This document shows, in pieces, positions 17,325-38,848 of a stretch of DNA of 64,000 bases. The stretch covers positions 14,818,001 through 14,882,000 of the forward strand of contig OX597835.1 in assembly GCA_951406725.2 (NCBI GenBank). Reading direction: 5' to 3'. Every line of letters begins with the position of its first letter. The first letter of the stretch is position 1. A program made the position numbers and the translations under genes. Below the pieces are notes generated by a model, which did not search any database, had not been told where the DNA came from, and saw nothing but the letters and a program-made list of their open reading frames with translations. Source of the DNA: Octopus vulgaris. Lineage: Eukaryota.

Positions 17325-17726
17325 TACTCTTTTACTCTTTTACTCGTTTCAGTCATTTGACTGTGGCCATGCTGGAGCACCGCCTTTAGTCGAGCAAATC
17401 GACTCCAGGACTTATTCTTTGTAAGCCTAGTACTTATGCTATCGGTCTCTTTTGCCGAACCGTTAAGTTACGGGGACGTAAACACACCAGCATCGGTTGT
17501 CAAGCGATGTTGGGGGGGACAAACGCAGACACACAAACATATACACACACATACATATACATATATACGACGGGCTTCTTTCAGTTTCTGTCTACCAAAT
17601 CCACTCACAAGGCTTTGGTCGGCCCGAAGCTGTAGTAGAAGACACTTGCCCAAGGTGCCATGCAGTGGGACTGAACCTGGAACCATGTGGTTGGTAAATA
17701 AGCTACTTACCACACAGCCACTCCTG
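17325..17726 (-). mobile_element. SINE family A, full length
   Basis: High identity to other copies. Confidence 0.9.
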
Positions 17727-18195
17727 AATTACATAATATGTAATATAAGAATTACAGCTTGCAGTTTATAAATTTTGCGAAACAAAAAAATATGTCAGAA
17801 ATAAAATAAACGTTAAAGCAATAAGTAAATAAAATTAAGCTCGAATAATAGAGATTTTGATAAAATTAGCAGCGGTTTAAAATAATACATTGAAACAGTG
17901 GCTGCATTTAGTCCAGTTTGGTTGATTTCTTACAAATATCTGGAATTCTTTAACTAAACATTATGAGGAATTCTTTCTATCTTGTTACATGGAAGTAGTC
18001 ACGAGTTTAGTTAGTGTAGATGTGAACTTTCACCATGCCTGGACCTAAATGCTGAGTGCGCGTGCAGACGTGTATACGTTTGCTTGTGTGTCTATATGCA
18101 TATACGTGTATATGTTTATATATATATATATATATATATACGTCAACTACCACCCTAGAACCAACACACACACATATATATATATATATATATGT

Positions 18196-18361
18196 AGGCG
18201 TAGGAGTGGTAGTGTGGTAAGTTGCTTGCTTATGAACCACATGGTTCCGGGTTCATTCCCACTGCGTGGCACCTTGGGCGAGTGTCTTCTACTATAGCCT
18301 TGGGCCGACCAAAGCCTTGTGAGTGGATTTGGTAGAAGGAAACTGAAAGAAGCCCGTTGTA

Positions 18362-18400
<39 letters not shown>

Positions 18401-18607
18401 CTCTGTTTGTCCAACCATCATCGCTTGACAACCGATGCTGGTGTGTTTACGTTCCCGTAACCTAGCGGTTCGGGAAAAGAGACCAATAGAATTAGTACTA
18501 GGCTTACAAAGAATAAGTCCTGGGGTCGATTTGCTCGATCGACTAAAAGGTGGTGCTCCAGCATGGCCACAGTCAGATGACTGAAACAAGTAAAAGAGTA
18601 AAGAGTG
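18196..18607 (+). mobile_element. SINE family A, full length
   Basis: High identity; inverted relative to the copy at 17325-17726. Confidence 0.9.
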
Positions 18608-18749: not shown

Positions 18750-19090
18750 TCGTTGAACAACCTGCGCACAAATAATTTGTTTGTAACGATCATACCTATG
18801 TGCCACATATTAAACTCCCCCACTCCACCCGCCATCAAATCGACATTGTCTGAACAGGTGCCACGTTGTGCCACGCGTTAGGTGTCGCAGAGCAATGTGA
18901 GATGAAGTGGTTTGCTCAAGAACACAACGCACCGACCGGTCTACGAACTGAACTCACGATCGCGCGGTAATCAGGTGTCGCAGAGCAATGTGAGATGAAG
19001 TGGTTTGCTCAAGAACACAACGCACCGACCGGTCTACGAACTGAACTCACGATCGCGCGGTAAGCTCCCGAACCACTAGGCCACGCACCT
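18750..19090 (-). mobile_element. SINE family D containing a perfect internal tandem duplication
   Basis: A 93-bp period duplication at 18880-19063 lies inside an otherwise diverged copy. Confidence 0.7.
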
Positions 19091-19862: not shown

Positions 19863-19914
<52 letters not shown>

Positions 19915-19920
19915 GTATAT

Positions 19921-20200
19921 GTAAATATAATATGTGACAATTATTCGGTAACAAAGCTCCGAGTCTCGGATGTCGGGGCGGAAACCCACGCCGCCATCTC
20001 TTCAGTTATCGGCCATAACATTTTTTTTTTCGATGGCCGGATAACTGAAGAGGTGGCGGCGTGGGTTTCCGCCCCGAGATCCGAAACTCGGAGTTTTATC
20101 ATGGCTGCCAAATAACTGTCATATATATTTACAGATAAATTCCTCTATTTACATAACATCGAGGTCTCTGTCATTCTTTTGTTGTCTTACTATTTCTATC
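19921..20200. mobile_element. Inverted pair of Penelope-like terminal repeats (foldback)
   Basis: 19921-20016 is the imperfect reverse complement of ~20033-20132, separated by a T-rich spacer. Both arms carry the hammerhead-type module. Confidence 0.7.
20040..20100 (+). ncRNA. Type I hammerhead ribozyme motif (Penelope-like end)
   Basis: gataa-CTGAAGA-[stem II containing gcgg...ccgc]-GAAA-CT-CGG-AG-T-T|ttatc. Core boxes are intact, stem I gataa/ttatc is a perfect 5 bp, stem III is short, and predicted cleavage is after 20095 (GUU). Confidence 0.7.
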
Positions 20201-20247
20201 AAGATATACATACATACTTACACACACACACATACATATATATATAT

Positions 20248-20617
20248 ACTCTTTACTTGTTTCAGTCATTTGACTGCGGCCATGCTGGAGCACCGCCTTT
20301 AGTCGAGCAAATCGACCCCGGGACTTATACTTTGTAAGCCCAGTACTTATTCTATCGGTCTCTTTTGCCGAACCGCTAAGTGACGGGGACGTAAACACAC
20401 CAGCATCGGTTGTCAAGCAATGCTAGGGGGACAAACACAGACACACATATATATATATACGACAGGATTCTTTCAGTTTCCGTCTACCAAATCCACTCAC
20501 AAGGTATTGGTCGGCCCGGGGCTATAGCAGAAGACACTTGCCCAAGATGCCACGCAGTGGGACTGAACCCGGAACCATGTGGCTGGTTAGCAAGCTACTT
20601 ACCACACAGCCACTCCT
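20248..20617 (-). mobile_element. SINE family A, full length
   Basis: High identity to other copies. Confidence 0.9.
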
Positions 20618-21251
20618 GTATTAAAGAGAGGATGACCGTAACATCTTTTTGCCGTTGGGTCTCTTCAATCAGAATTGACCTGGGCCAAAGCAACAATAAG
20701 TATTGTATTTTTCGTTTGAAAGCTTTATGGACTCTGACGCGAAGTAACTCCTAAATGTAACAAAGTGATGATAAATCAAATATAATTGCACAGAAGAGAA
20801 TTTATGTGCAAGAAAAGAGAAAAAAAAATATAAGTATAAAACAAAAAAACAACGGGGGAAAAAATAATAATCTTGAGTCAATGTATTATGGTATGAAGGA
20901 AAGGAAGAGATATGGACGTTTGGATATTTGCTTTGTCGAGATTGATAGGGCTAGGAGAGAAACCCAAATATTAGAGGACACAATGTGTGTGTGTGTGTGT
21001 GTGTGGTTTGCAGAAACAGTATGGGTCAAAACAAATTACATTAATTTCCTCGAATTCTTTTTTGAAAAAAAATCTTTAGTTATAGAAAGGTACAAGCATG
21101 ACTGTGTCATAAGAAGCTTGGTTCCCAAACCACATGGCGTAGGATTCAGGCTCACTGCACGGCATCTTGGGCAAGTGACTTCCACTACAGGCAACCCGAC
21201 CAAAGCCTTGTGAGTGGATTTGCTAGACGGAACCTGAAAGAAACCCGCTAC

Positions 21252-23307: not shown

Positions 23308-23364
<57 letters not shown>

Positions 23365-23365
<1 letters not shown>

Positions 23366-23640
23366 AATCCAAACGGGAAACAAAAAAACAACAACAAGGG
23401 AACAATTACAGTATTATTATTAATAGGCGCTCAGGAAATGGAAGCAGGGAGGTATGACGTTTCGAGCGGAGCTCTTCGTCGGAAACATAAAGAAGGAAGA
23501 GAGAGGAAAGAAAGATCCCGGAGCGGGCAACGGAGATAGAGAAAAAAACGGCTGGTGTTAGCAGAAGCACATGGTGAAAGGCGGATGTTTACGATAACAA
23601 GAGCAAAGTGGGTTTTTAAAGGCAAAAGAGTGGAGACAAG
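23365..23640 (-). mobile_element. Penelope-like terminal repeat fragment with degenerate hammerhead-like motif
   Basis: Minus strand reads tttcCGACGAa-gagc-tcc-gctc-GAAAcgtc followed by pyrimidine-rich sequence. A related truncated copy lies at 2870-2965. Confidence 0.45.
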
Positions 23641-23649
23641 GTTGGTAAC

Positions 23650-26280
23650 GCAACAGATGTGTGTGTATGTGTGAGTGTGTGCGTGTGCGTGTGTGTATGT
23701 GTGTGTGTGAGGCGAGGTAAAAAAACAAAAAATATATGTATGTGTTAGTGTGTGCGTCTGTGTGTAGGCGTGTGAGGTAGGGCGAGACGGTGGTCAGCAT
23801 AGCAGCAGCATAGCAGACAAAGGTCAGTAGTGAGAAAAGGGAGGAAGGAGGAAGGGAGGGAGGGGAAGGGGTGGGGGCGTATGTAGCGTGCCAGCGTGTG
23901 TTGAGTGGTAGTGTGTGTGTGTGTCCAGTGTCGTGGTAGTATTAGTGGCGAGTAGATTGAATGTGTGTAAGAGTGAGGTATATGTTTAAGCAATGTGTGT
24001 ATATGTGTGCGCGTGTGTGTAACGAAAAAAAAGGGGGGGGGGTTTAGGAAAAGGACTCCAGCGGAGGGGAAGATGGAGGAGTGGTCCCGCGGAGACGGGC
24101 GTGGGAAAACCCAACGACACGCGACATCCCAGGAACGGGCGGGAGGTCTCGTCGGATCCAAGGGCGAGGTGCATGCGGGCGCATGCGTGCGCGAACCGGC
24201 GCAAACGCGTGTGTGCGCGAGCCTGCGAGTGTGCGCGTACGTATGTGTGCGTGTGGATGTGTGAGTGTGTCTGTGTGTATGTCTGGGTGGCAGTGTGTCC
24301 GATGAATGTATGTGAGTATGTGTGTATATATGTGTGTGCATAGATGTATGTCCGTGTGTGTGTGTGTGTGTGTATGTGTGTATGAGTGTGTATGTATGTA
24401 CGTGTGGGTGTGGGGAAGTGTGTGTATGTGCATGTGTGTGCGCGAACATACAGGTGTGTGAGTGAGTGCGTGTGTGTGTATGTATGTGTGAGTGTGTATG
24501 TATGTGTGTGTAGGATGCATGTATGTGTATGGGTGTATGTATGCGTGTGTGTATGTATGTATGTGTACGTGCGTGTGTGTGTGTGTATGCGTGTAGGTGT
24601 GCGCGTGTGCATGCGTGCATGTATGTGCGTATGTGTGTGTGTGTGCATGTGTGTGGGTATATATGTGTGTGCGTATATGTGTGTGTATGTGCGTACATGT
24701 GTGTGTGTGTGCATGTGTGTGTGTAGGTGTGTAGGCGTGTGTGTATAGGTGTATGTATGTAAGTATGTATGGGTGTGTCCGTGTATGTGTGTATGTATGT
24801 GTGTGTATGTAGCTGTGTGGGCGTGTGTATATGTGTGTGTATGTAGGTGTGTAGGCGTGTGTATATAGGTGTATGTATGTATGTCTGGGTGTGTCCGTGC
24901 ATGTTTGTGTGTGTGTGTGTGTGCATGTGTATGTAGGTGTGTGTGTACGTGTGTAATGTATGTGTGTATGCGTGTGTATGCGTGCGTGTGTGTATGTAGG
25001 TGCGTGTGTATGTGTGTGGGAGTGTAGGTGTGTGTGTGCGTGTGCGTGTTTATGTTGGTGTGTGCGTATGTGAGTGTGAGTGTATGAGTGTTTGTCATGC
25101 ATGTGTGTGCGCGTGCAGGTGAGTGTGTGTGTAAGTATGTGTGTGTGTATGTTTGTGTGAGTGTGTATGTGTGTATGTCTGTGTGTATGTATGTGCGTAT
25201 AGGAGTATGTAGGTATGTGTGTGTGTATGTATATGGGTGTATGTATGTGTGTGTGTGTGCATGTGTATAAGTATATGCGTGTGTGCGTATGTGTGTGTAT
25301 GTGTATGTGTGTGTGTTTATGTATGTGTGTATGTATGTGTGTAGGCGTGAGTGTGTAGATGTATCTATATATGGGTGTGTGTCAGTGTGTGTTTGTGTGT
25401 GTGTAGGTAGATGTGTGTGTCTGAGTGAGGGTATGGCTGTGTAGGTGTGTGTGTGTATGAATGTAAGTGTGTGCGTATACAAGTGTAATGTATGTATGTG
25501 GGTGTGTGTGTGTGTGTATGTGTACGTGTGCGTGTGTATGTGTGTGTGTGTATGCGTGTGAGTGTGGGTGTATGGGTGTATGTCTGTGTGTGTGTATGTC
25601 TGAAGTGGGTATGTGTGTGTATGTATGTATGTGTGTGTGTGTGCGGGTATGTGTGTGTGTGTATGTGTGTGTGTGAGTAGGTGTGCGTGTATGTATGTGG
25701 GTAGGGATGCATGCGAGTGTGTGGGTATGTATGCAAACATACGCAAGCGCACATCCGAAGCAAGCCCACACACACGAAGCGCGCTCACGCACACAACGCA
25801 CAAGCAGTGCAACGCAAGCCCAAAGGGGCCGACCGAGCCCCCAGCGCGCGCCAAGGCGCGCGAGCGCAAAGGCCCTCGAGCGCTCCGCTACGCGGGAACC
25901 GAGGATCCATCAGCCAAAACCGGAAAGCAGAAAAGAGGGGGGCTGCCTGGATGCAAAAAGGTGTATGTGTGTGTGCATTCAGTGTACGGGTGTGCATGTG
26001 TGGGTATGTATGTATGTATGTGCCTACATGTATGTGTGCATGTGTGTGTGTGTGAGGTATGTACGTGCGGTGTGTGTGTGTGAGTGTGTGTGTATGTATG
26101 TGCGTATGTATGTGTGTGTGTATGTGTGTATGTATGTCTGTGTGTGTGTGTGTGTGTAAGTATGTATGCGTGTGTGTATGTATGTGTGTGTGTATGTGCA
26201 TGTGTGTCTGTAAGTGTGTGTGATTAAATGTGTGAATGTATGTACGTAGATGGGTCTACGTATGTGTGTGTGTGAACAGG
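23650..26280. repeat. Large degenerate (GT/GTAT)n microsatellite field with embedded GC-rich islands
   Basis: Direct inspection; this is the source of the His/Thr-rich and Val/Cys-rich ORFs. Confidence 0.9.
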
Positions 26281-26440
26281 CGTATATATATCTACAGACA
26301 AACGTTAGCTTCTGCTTTATGCTACATGCATCTATTTAGCCTGTCAATCAATATATACATCTACTCCTTTGCGGAAATTTACCAATTCTTTCCCCTCACA
26401 GATTAATAAAAACACACGATCGTTTACAAATATATATATA

Positions 26441-26977
26441 CAGGGTGTCCCAAAAAAATGTATACACTTGCTGCAACAGTCTGTTATTGCCAAGCATTAG
26501 AGAGGACTTTGAACAGGAAGAGTTTTATTTCCAGCAAGATGGGGCACCTCCACACTACCATCGCGATGTTAGATCCTTTCTTGATGGGATCTTGCCAAAC
26601 AGGTGGATTGGACGGAGAGGTTTTGTCGAATACCCTCCACGTTCACCAGACCTCACACCACTAGACTTCTTTTTATGGGGATACCTAAAGGACAAAGTCT
26701 ACGCACAGAAACCTGCAACAGTCGTTCAATTGAGGGCAACCATTGAACATGAATGTACGAATATCCCAAGGGAATTGTTCCATGATGTGTGCCATTCCAT
26801 CGCTTCGCGTTGTCAGCAGTGTCTGGAGCAGAACGGACATCAGTTTGAGACCATGCGATAACAAGACAATAGAATGATATTTGTAAATTCTTTTACCTGT
26901 TGAAAATTATTCGAGTTATAATAAACCCCAAATTTACAATTATTTAAGGTGTGTATACATTTTTTTGGGACACCCTG
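26441..26977 (+). mobile_element. Internally deleted Tc1/mariner-superfamily element of the DD41D (rosa/Visitor) type
   Basis: Perfect 27-bp TIRs cagggtgtcccaaaaaaatgtatacac with TA flanks. Retains an open C-terminal transposase half (FQQDGAPPH...PPRSPDLTPLDFFLWGYLKDKVY) with 41 residues between the last two catalytic Asp. Confidence 0.92.
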
Positions 26978-36258: not shown

Positions 36259-38276
36259 TCATACTTGGCTACACAACCGACCATGTTCTGACTGGCATGA
36301 TGACGTAGCGTGCAAGGACGTCACCCAAGAATTAGCGGAATTACGACGAAGGACTTCAGCGTTTTTTGCAACGAAATAAATCTGTCTTGGTAAGGACTTA
36401 CTGTTGGCATCATTTGGCACGATATCAGGTCTGTTGAGGTGACCGTTCTGAAGAGGCATGACATCATTAACCAGAGATGTAGACGCGTGTCGAATTTTTT
36501 CCGTCGAATAAGGATATTTAAAAGTACTAAAGTTTTTCTTGTCCTTCTCCAGTAAGGAGATCTTTTCCGATTTACGAACCGAAGCAGCGCTATTATCGGT
36601 TGGTTGCACAACAGCACCGTTAAGCTTGCTCTTATAAACTTCGTTGTTATTATTATTATTACTGCTAACCACACCAGTAGATGTGTTCCGTTTACTGGTG
36701 TTGTTAGCACTATTCATTTTATTGTTTGACGAACGATCAACTTTTTGCTGATTGTCATTAGCAATTCCGTTTAAGTGGACATTTTCTTCCTCTTGGACGG
36801 CATGCAAATGACTATCAGGCTGGGGAGTTAAACAATTTCGATTGAAATATTGGTCACATTTGTTCCGCAAATCCATTTTATAGTCATGAGATAAGCTGCC
36901 ATCTCTTGACTCCAAAGCTCTGTTTTCAATGACTGATGTTGGTGAGTTTTGTGTTTCTAAAGTTTTTTCATATTCTTTTGTAATTTGACTCCAGTCCATG
37001 GACGGGCTGTGTACCTCAGCAGAAATGTTATGTGATGTGTCGCTAGCAGAACTTCCTTCACCCAAACTCTGATTGCTTCCATGGTTTCTTATACCTGATT
37101 CGTTTTCCGAGGCAGCAACATTAGCTTCGAGGCGATTAACTACGTCTTGGATCATGTCTATGTTTTTCTGTGCTTCTCTGTCTTCGGAGACAGAATTTAC
37201 TGACTCATCAAATGTCACTCGTGCCATTCCAGCTTTACGCGATTTATTCATCTTGCGTACCAAAACACTATTCGGAAGAGTCGATTCTTGTTCATCTCGA
37301 GGATGTTCGGCAATGGGCGGTAATTGAGATAACGTCTCTTCTTCGATAGTACCAACTGTGTCGGTGTCACAGCAGTCACTGTTTGTTGACATGCTAGGTA
37401 CCGACCCGTGGTGCCGTCTCCTTTTGCGCCGGTGTAACTCAGCTAGCTCAATCTGGTCGAAACTTGGGTTACGTACAATATGGTCACTCGGAACCATGAA
37501 GACTGGGTGACCTGCAGACACGTAGTCCAGGATTCTGAAGCGCCAACTTTGTTTCAGAGTTAACACCGACCAAAGGGCCACCCATAGAACCATATACGTG
37601 ACGTCAATGATGGCACATATCAACACGAACCTACTATGCGTCAATCTGTAGACATTGATTAAATCATAAATAATGGGTCCTTTACATAGAGCCAGAAATA
37701 CTAGACTGACCATTGCACACGAGTGCGGAATGTAACCTTGACACGTAGTGCGATTGATCGGAAAATAATCTTTTCCAAAGGCAGGGTGATGTCGTTGAAG
37801 AACGAGGCGGAATTTCTCCTCGAAGAAATGAAGGCCATACTCAAAAATTGTAATGGTAGATATAATCAAGAAGAATCCCCCGACAAGATAAAGTCCTAAA
37901 ACAGCTTGAGAAGGAAGCAAAAGTGGTATATCAGGATAGGCCCACCTGTTGAAGGCGACTTTATAGAGAATAGTCATACCACAGAAGGTAAAAAGAGAGT
38001 GAACTGTGAGCCAAAACAGCTGTAATGCAAATATGCAACTAAGTACTTTGTTAGTGTACCAGAAAATGGCTGAATATCTGGTGGAGAAGGCAAAAAATGC
38101 AGTTGTGAAGTAACAAAAGTTCAGTGATACTGGTTGTTCTGGTAAAATTAGAACATGACTGCCAACGAATTGTGTAATGTTAGGAAAGGAAGATAAATTT
38201 GTTTCGGGACGTGGGATGTTAGAATAGATCTTTCTTGGATGAAACAGGAAATCTAGATCCGTTGTCCAAATGGCAT
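36259..38276 (-). CDS. tinc: Terminal coding exon of a tincar-like multi-pass transmembrane protein (~670 aa encoded here; upstream exons not identified in window)
   Basis: The 572-aa ORF (36259-37977) stays open 299 nt further upstream to a canonical acceptor, adding AIWTTDLDFLFHPRK...TRYSAIFWYTNKVLSCIFALQLFWLTVHSLFTFCG before MTILYK. It has several hydrophobic helices followed by a long hydrophilic Ser/Asn-rich tail ending CSQV*. The motifs IWxTDLDFL and RYxAxFWxTNK...GMxxLYK match my recollection of tincar-family proteins; no database search was run. Confidence 0.8.
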
Positions 38277-38310
38277 CTGAAAATATACAGAGAGAGAGAA
38301 AGAAGGAAAA
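38277..38310 (-). promoter_or_regulatory. 3' splice acceptor (polypyrimidine tract + CAG) of the tincar-like last exon; phase-1 intron
   Basis: The minus strand reads ttttccttctttctctctctctgtatattttcag|AT GCC ATT TGG, and the frame stays open to the stop at 36259. Confidence 0.8.
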
Positions 38311-38848
38311 ATAGCATTAGATATTTTGATCAATCATTGAATCACTTTACCTCATAAGCAAAATCAACAGCTAGAGCAAAAATTCAATTATTTACATCAA
38401 TACAGCTTAACAACTAACAAGTTAATTTAGCTTCCATCTTAAAGCGTTAAATCTTTATATAAGTTAAATTGGCACCTTTCATGGGTTATATAAAAGATAT
38501 ACGCCCTGCTTAGTGAAATTCAATAAATTATCCCTAGGAAGAGTAACAACCATAATTGTGTGCTTACATCAAGCAGAAATTCTTCGATGCACCTTCAGCT
38601 GCGGAAAAAGCAGCCAAAAGGAAACTGTGGCTCATGAAACACTTTTAAAAGAAGAGGGTTGACAGTGACTTCAAAGTTTTGGTTTGTTAGCTTTCGTCGG
38701 ACTGACAGACGAAGAAACTGTCACCGCGCTTCTTTGTACACATATAAGAAATATATATATTCTTCCAAAAAATATTGAGTACTTACCCAGTTTATTGATA
38801 AATTGGTTTTATAATAATTCGGCATAAAATGTGTGTGTGTGTGTGTTA

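What the first reader, a model, noticed from the sequence alone, without database searches (positions are those of the whole stretch)
19921..20132. Hammerhead ribozyme paired with its own inverted, core-mutated copy
Seen: the right arm (+) folds as a complete type I hammerhead. It has stem I gataa/ttatc (extendable via tggcc/ggctg across a small internal loop), CUGAAGA, a GC-rich stem II, GAAA, a short stem III and a GUU site after 20095. About 17 nt upstream sits an inverted copy whose minus-strand version has GAAA->GAGA and GUU->GCU, so it should be catalytically dead. Established: minimal hammerheads occur in the terminal repeats of Penelope-like elements and in retrozymes, and Penelope insertions often have inverted termini. 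Inference: this is a non-coding Penelope/retrozyme-type element. A read-through transcript could form either a ~95-bp foldback (ADAR/Dicer substrate, ribozyme masked) or an active ribozyme, giving two mutually exclusive folds.
Basis: partly seen in the sequence, partly recalled or inferred. Interest (0 to 1): 0.72.

Follow-up and report, generated by a model that had tools for sequence, protein, structure and literature searches.

The report
Decayed back-to-back Penelope retroelement ends
This mirror-image repeat is two cut-short ends of a common Penelope-type jumping gene lying back to back in a TA repeat; each end has a hammerhead (self-cutting RNA) motif, both are damaged by what is likely random decay, and any RNA read through the pair is predicted to zip into one long hairpin, so it is an ordinary insertion of a known layout and likely not a ribozyme switch.

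Summary
The hammerhead motif and the inverted copy are real. They are two 5'-truncated 3' ends (pLTRs) of a Hydra-clade Penelope-like retroelement, joined head to head in (TA)n. The right arm runs on to about 20203 with a one-sided tail. The same end abuts an RT/GIY-YIG ORF elsewhere in the genome, so the family is coding and is not a retrozyme. The layout is common (18 of 30 loci have a head-to-head partner) and is in print. The 'dead partner' is not a family trait: of 38 pairs 15 have two intact cores, 14 one and 9 none, and the left arm's pair of core changes occurs in no other arm. The right arm is damaged too (stem II). The foldback is predicted to beat the ribozyme fold by about 84 kcal/mol, so there is no two-state switch. 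Side results: the youngest sister subfamily (3,432 pattern matches) and a young Neptune-type element at 23322-26283 carry a U4C core, and paired arms share rare alleles and have a tail on one side only. This scan noted the same layout and the U4C cores before on other DNA.

The parts
19865..19920 (.). (TA)n tract, the insertion target; it hides any target-site duplication
   Evidence: related copies lie at (TA)n or similar microsatellites
19921..20016 (-). Left arm: 5'-truncated element 3' end, short form without tail; hammerhead broken (A14G at 19965, U16.1C at 19956, 6-nt deletion in the stem I 3' strand, 1-nt deletion in the stem I 5' side)
20014..20016 (.). Junction of the two arms; 3 nt (CAT) fit both arms, a possible microhomology
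   Evidence: read from the sequence against family copies; microhomology not counted across loci
20014..20203 (+). Right arm: 5'-truncated element 3' end (pLTR), long form with tail
   Evidence: 79.5% identical to the 3' end of an intact 2,590-bp sister element
20040..20100 (+). Type I hammerhead motif: stem I 20040-44/20096-100, CUGAAGA 20045-51, long irregular stem II 20052-82 (proximal pairs damaged at 20053 and 20078), GAAA 20083-86, near-palindromic stem III 20086-94, predicted cut after 20095
20133..20203 (+). About 70-nt tail, present on this arm only, followed by a decayed TA/CA tract
   Evidence: tail on exactly one arm in 17 of 18 pairs (15 full, 2 partial), on both arms in 0 of 18

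Best explanation
The locus is two truncated 3' ends of a Hydra-clade Penelope-like retroelement lying head to head in a (TA)n tract, likely made in one insertion event and likely inert today. Shown: the arms belong to a dispersed family whose end abuts an RT/GIY-YIG ORF; pairs have a tail on one arm only; the two arms of a pair share rare alleles. Inferred mechanism: the element's endonuclease cut both strands of the TA tract, and each DNA end primed reverse transcription at one of two start sites on the element RNA, one on each side of the tail. Both cDNAs stopped early, just upstream of the hammerhead, and were joined 5' end to 5' end. The hammerhead is simply part of the element's end. In an intact tandem element it would likely cut slowly, as a dimer formed through its palindromic stem III. 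Here both arms have since decayed at random (9 and 10 differing positions in about 100), and a read-through RNA of either strand is predicted to form the long hairpin, which masks the ribozyme.
For: Family: 867 exact matches to a 25-nt pattern, control 0; 1,498 first-look candidates. Link to ORF: L037 and L033 carry an arm 86-89% like the window's directly before the ORF start; L068 carries aa 1-703 of the ORF followed by the hammerhead end. [quoted passage not shown]. Layout: 18 of 30 loci from an arm-only query have a head-to-head partner; 26 head-to-head pairs against 1 tail-to-tail among 100 listed young copies; junctions differ between loci. One tail per pair in 17 of 18, matching the two RT start sites that bound the tail in vitro. 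Shared minor alleles 36 of 69 site comparisons (52%) against 12% mean and 28% maximum in 2,000 shuffles. Decay: 15/14/9 pairs with 2/1/0 intact cores; independence predicts about 12.7/18.5/6.7 (by hand). Foldback -143 against -59.5 kcal/mol.
Against: No tree with named Hydra elements was built, and Pfam gives no hit for the ORF; clade placement rests on motifs. Shared alleles within pairs could come from gene conversion inside the palindrome instead of a shared template (5-10% differences between arms argue against strong recent conversion but do not exclude it). Covariation across 13 copies does not exceed shuffles, so the fold is supported by identity with the known consensus and by conserved stems, not by compensatory change. 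No intact ORF of the window's own subfamily was found among 44 matches (only best candidates are scored). Cleavage was not tested.
Confidence: 0.9

Rival explanations
1. A regulated two-state RNA: the inverted, dead copy is kept to mask an active ribozyme, and the RNA switches between foldback and hammerhead.
For: The left arm is broken at two core positions while the right arm keeps all core letters; the foldback is very stable.
Against: The A14G plus U16.1C pair occurs in 1 of 145 distinct arms, the window's own. One-intact pairs are not in excess (14 of 38, about 18 expected). Tail-less arms like the left one are intact in 27 of 41, tailed arms in 17 of 35. Masking needs complementarity, not a dead core. 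The right arm's stem II is damaged, and the energy gap is about 84 kcal/mol.
Confidence: 0.03
2. The 283-bp foldback is itself a non-autonomous mobile unit (retrozyme-like or MITE-like) that is copied whole.
For: 29 other loci match the whole structure at 84-87%. A tandem array of about 1.4-kb period carries the same motif at G000:C2:102.04 Mb, so non-coding derivatives may exist.
Against: The junction differs at every locus and the spacing between arms runs from 0 to over 1,200 nt; ends are asymmetric, unlike terminal inverted repeats; the arm is contiguous with an ORF in longer copies; there is no tandem monomer array at this locus.
Confidence: 0.04
3. The palindrome arose after insertion, by local inverted duplication or foldback repair of a single copy.
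For: The arms of a pair share rare alleles.
Against: The left arm ends at the family's short end, which also recurs in solo copies and in young, over 99% identical insertions; the head-to-head form is already frequent among the youngest copies.
Confidence: 0.03

Closest known systems
Hydra clade of C-terminal-endonuclease Penelope-like elements, incl. Hydra-1_Obim of Octopus bimaculoides (Craig et al. 2021, PMC8557442; seen: passages, section 11, supplement passages and part 2 of 59)
   Same: Unit under 3 kb with one ORF, RWK, DKT, CxCX5C, (TA)n targets, hammerhead near the 3' end. Stem III of the ACTC-N-GAGT type and a GUU site occur in several Hydra rows of their file S2. An inverted 5'-truncated copy and a one-sided tail are described in their Fig. 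2 legend; Penelope-13_HM has an inverted copy with a hammerhead on each strand.
   Different: A different family from Hydra-1_Obim (28 of the first 44 residues identical, counted by eye; different stem II). Tail about 70 nt against the 30-40 bp stated. Stem II is long and irregular, with one extra nucleotide before GAAA. The youngest sister subfamily has CCGA where all Hydra rows of file S2 have CTGA.
[quoted passage not shown]
   Same: Type I, long helix II, palindromic unstable helix III, monomer expected inactive; the paper reports dual motifs 100-700 bp apart on opposite strands and many solo motifs from truncated elements.
   Different: Here helix III has 3 bp plus a 3-nt loop, and the unpaired nucleotide lies on the 3' side of stem II instead of after A9.
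Poseidon PAc element of Anolis, in vitro (Frangieh et al. 2024, PMC11167929; seen: passages)
   Same: Two RT start sites bound the tail, both target strands are cut and extended, AT-rich targets, hammerhead mutants still insert.
   Different: Another clade. The passages seen do not tie the two start sites to the two arms of an inverted insertion; that link is my inference from the pair counts.
Metazoan non-LTR retrozymes (bioRxiv 10.64898/2026.07.22.740005; seen: part 1 of 5)
   Same: Type I hammerhead related to PLE pLTRs.
   Different: Retrozymes are non-coding tandem repeats; this arm is the end of a coding element and lies in an inverted, not tandem, pair.

Membership tests
Hydra-clade Penelope-like element | End sequence joined to a single RT + C-terminal GIY-YIG ORF, unit under 3 kb | tested here: met
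   L037, L033, L068 link the arm to the ORF; sister unit 2,590 bp with 708-aa ORF
Hydra-clade Penelope-like element | RWK and DKT motifs, CxCX5C linker, no CC pair inside GIY-YIG, CxxC and CxH near the C-terminus | tested here: met
   on the intact sister ORF; RWK also in an ORF piece next to a window-type arm (L021)
Hydra-clade Penelope-like element | Insertion in (TA)n; tandem and inverted 5'-truncated copies; one-sided tail | tested here: met
Hydra-clade Penelope-like element | RT groups with named Hydra elements in a tree | not tested
   named sequences were seen only as text in a supplement; no tree built
Type I hammerhead ribozyme | CUGANGA, GAAA, NUH and stems I-III | tested here: met
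   right arm has all core letters; core intact in 64 of 104 family arms; not met by the left arm
Type I hammerhead ribozyme | Stem II closes the core with G10.1-C11.1 and no insertion | tested here: inconclusive
   family has one extra nucleotide before G12; the window copy lost two proximal pairs
Type I hammerhead ribozyme | Compensatory changes in the stems | tested here: inconclusive
   89% of cells pair against 32-51% when slid, but covariation 0.116 equals shuffles (336 of 500 reach it)
Type I hammerhead ribozyme | Self-cleavage at the predicted site | not testable with these tools
   needs an assay; RNA read ends were inconclusive
Non-LTR retrozyme | Non-coding monomers in direct tandem, each with a hammerhead | tested here: not met
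   inverted pair here; arm contiguous with an ORF in longer copies
Non-LTR retrozyme | Abundant circular RNA | tested here: inconclusive
   no back-joints listed in three RNA runs, which may come from another species
MITE / foldback DNA transposon | Fixed length, symmetric terminal inverted repeats, shared interior | tested here: not met
   variable junctions and asymmetric ends

The most novel reading that the evidence does not exclude
The locus itself is ordinary, but its family shows two things worth a test. (1) The newest waves of two different Penelope clades in this genome (the Hydra sister subfamily and a Neptune-type element) both spread with a U4C hammerhead core while keeping the stems, so these elements are selected for a slow or non-cutting hammerhead fold and not for fast cleavage. 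(2) Each inverted insertion is made by twin priming: the two cut DNA strands start at the two different RT start sites of one RNA lineage, which gives exactly one tailed and one tail-less arm.
Probability: 0.45. Interest if true: 0.45.

Novelty: new member of a known kind. Interest (0 to 1): 0.2.

Why it matters
As a locus it matters little: it is one of many decayed inverted Penelope stubs. It is a useful negative, because a ribozyme beside its inverted, mutated copy looks designed but follows from how these elements insert and decay. The family matters more. An apparently active sister subfamily with many intact ORFs and a natural U4C core, next to an older subfamily with the canonical core, gives a matched pair for the open question of what hammerheads do for Penelope-like elements. 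The frequent inverted insertions are also a likely steady source of long double-stranded RNA in an animal group known (recalled, not tested here) for heavy A-to-I editing.

Tried and rejected
Rfam: no hammerhead family at gathering score in the window or at E up to 10 around the locus. Pfam: no hit for the 708-aa ORF; 1,027 unnamed homologues, best 42-52% identical, gave no name. Run search: no RNA holder listed. Raw RNA reads of three runs (6% of each read; organism B, possibly another species): 163, 181 and 90 reads lie on the stretch, only 2 of 434 at 99% or more; none shows this copy's letter at 20053; depth over the junction is under 1; no joint is listed. So expression and editing of this copy stay open. 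In one of three runs 7 molecules begin at 20098, 2 nt from the expected 3' product start (20096); too weak to count. The same runs hold almost no reads of the young subfamily's ORF or hammerhead, so its cleavage could not be read. Rejected idea: that U4C builds a helix between the core and the 3' strand of stem II; the pairing is possible on paper but has 1-4% probability. In one search the constraint for the window's right arm and for the two-arm sequence was placed wrongly; one search replaces those numbers. One row of L086 is a false pair and is left out of all counts; the 30 loci were selected by the foldback query and so were not used for the one-tail count. Lunse et al. 2017 (small hammerhead variants of Penelope elements) is not held, and supplement file 1 of PMC4209133 could not be searched; either may already report U4C cores. 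Searches for U4C or CCGANGA with hammerhead found only PMC3088659; 'Penelope-like' + 'twin priming' + 'inverted' gave 2 papers, seen as listings only.

Full report
Observation. It is the only such canonical pattern in the window. The inverted copy covers 19921-20016 and has the two core changes (19965, 19956). The whole folds into one hairpin at -146 kcal/mol, z -18.6. Three corrections follow. The right arm alone does not prefer the hammerhead fold; that fold is 7 kcal/mol above the MFE and about 1e-6 of the ensemble, against 2e-4 to 6e-4 for three copies with an intact stem II, because two proximal stem II pairs are lost (20053, 20078). The left arm also has a 6-nt deletion that removes most of the 3' strand of stem I. 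And the element goes on to about 20203. Rfam lists no hammerhead here.

The family. The host is likely an octopus (inferred from the 2.8-Gb assembly and the kinship of the ORF to an Octopus element). The arm is a dispersed repeat: 1,498 first-look candidates and 867 exact matches to a 25-nt pattern, 0 for the reversed control. Longer copies show what it is the end of. L037 and L033 have an arm 86-89% like the window's just before an ORF start, and L068 holds a broken ORF over residues 1-703 followed by the hammerhead end. A sister subfamily, about 79% like the window arm, has a 2,590-bp unit, an intact 708-aa ORF, tandem and inverted copies over 99% identical, and 3,432 pattern matches. [quoted passage not shown] 2021. 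It is not Hydra-1_Obim itself (28 of the first 44 residues identical by eye). Pfam gave no hit and no tree was built, so the clade call rests on motifs. No intact ORF of the window's own subfamily turned up among 44 matches; its arms differ from the commonest letters at about 4% of non-CpG sites, so it looks older and inactive.

The inverted layout is the family's habit. Of 30 loci found with one arm only as query, 18 have a head-to-head partner within 1.5 kb (the window included). Among the first 100 listed young copies there are 26 head-to-head pairs, 7 of them short foldbacks like this one, and 1 tail-to-tail pair. Junctions differ from locus to locus, so these are separate events and not one mobile foldback. 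In 17 of the 18 pairs exactly one arm carries the roughly 70-nt tail (15 full, 2 partial), one pair has none, and no pair has two. Young insertions show the same two end points. Arms of a pair share minor alleles in 36 of 69 comparisons, against a mean of 12% and a maximum of 28% in 2,000 shuffles. In print: inverted 5'-truncated copies and a one-sided tail, dual hammerheads on opposite strands 100-700 bp apart, and two RT start sites that bound the tail, with both target strands extended.

The dead partner is decay. Among 38 pairs in which both arms cover the ribozyme, 15 have two intact cores, 14 one and 9 none; independent damage predicts about 12.7, 18.5 and 6.7. Tail-less arms are intact in 27 of 41, tailed arms in 17 of 35. 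The A14G plus U16.1C pair is found in 1 of 145 distinct arms, the window's own. Core positions change at 3.3% and other non-CpG positions at 4.4%, so there is little sign of selection after insertion.

How it most likely works. Shown: anatomy, family, link to the ORF, one tail per pair, shared alleles. Inferred: the endonuclease cuts both strands of a TA tract; each end primes cDNA at one of the two start sites; both cDNAs stop early and join at their 5' ends, here over three letters that fit both arms (20014-16). In the intact tandem element the hammerhead likely works as a dimer: stem III is unstable as a hairpin (+2.1 kcal/mol) but self-pairs between two copies (-9.7), as described for Penelope hammerheads. 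At this locus, forcing the ribozyme fold costs about 84 kcal/mol (-59.5 against -143.1). Because the arms are head to head, the antisense copy comes first in a transcript of either strand. So the prediction is one fold, not two. Covariation across 13 copies did not exceed shuffles, so the fold is backed by its match to the known consensus, not by compensatory change. RNA runs showed reads of the family but not of this copy, and may come from another species; expression, editing and cleavage remain untested.

Side result. The young sister subfamily reads CCGAAGA (U4C): 99 of the first 100 listed matches, also in copies only about 90% like it over the whole element, while stem I, the proximal stem II and stem III pairs are unchanged between the subfamilies. 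All Hydra rows of Craig's file S2 have CTGA. A second, unrelated young element at 23322-26283 in this window (99.3% like a 6.2-kb tandem unit with a 1,009-aa frame and Neptune-type motifs, named from recall) also has a CCGA core: 8,703 exact matches against 3,851 with CTGA; the six CTGA loci read are 74-82% like the young end. Some CTGA copies may be CpG decay of CCGA. U4C is reported to lower activity in vitro yet allow viroid infection, and hammerhead mutants of a Poseidon element still insert in vitro. I did not find U4C reported for Penelope elements, but one key paper was not held.

Earlier notes. A look-up by sequence found nothing. Look-ups by words, made after my reading was set, show that this scan has filed the same inverted Hydra-type layout and U4C cores several times on other DNA. 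These are unchecked notes and are not counted as support.

Verdict. New member of a known kind; the switch reading is not supported. Interest 0.2.

Noticed in passing
window 23322-26283 (-): 3' part (2,966 bp, 99.3% identical) of a very young 6.2-kb tandem Penelope-like element with Neptune-type motifs, a long CA-rich 3' region and a minimal hammerhead with a CCGA (U4C) core near 23482-23455; 40 of 40 scored copies are 100% identical over 196 bp.
   Followed up: partly
L051-L055, L057-L062 (G000 C1, C16, C11 and others): Young Hydra sister subfamily: 2,590-bp unit, intact 708-aa ORF in many copies, tandem plus inverted insertions, U4C core; likely recently or still active.
   Followed up: yes
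G000:C2:102041900-102046112: Four matches of the window-type hammerhead pattern in direct tandem with a period of about 1.4 kb; possibly a shortened non-autonomous tandem derivative.
   Followed up: no
window 36262-38316 (-): 685-aa stop-free frame that looks like a membrane protein; no Pfam hit; nearest atlas clusters are named 'tincar' at scores 0.81-0.84, a lead only.
   Followed up: partly
window 26340-26858 (+): 173-aa frame resembling the C-terminal part of a mariner/Tc1 transposase (by eye, recalled motifs; no Pfam hit), directly beside the young element.
   Followed up: no
window 17339-17731, 18202-18602, 20252-20623, 21128-21247: Several copies of a SINE-like repeat in both orientations around the locus; they could form further long double-stranded RNA.
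   Followed up: no
window 18880-19063: Exact 91-nt direct duplication, spacing 93.
   Followed up: no
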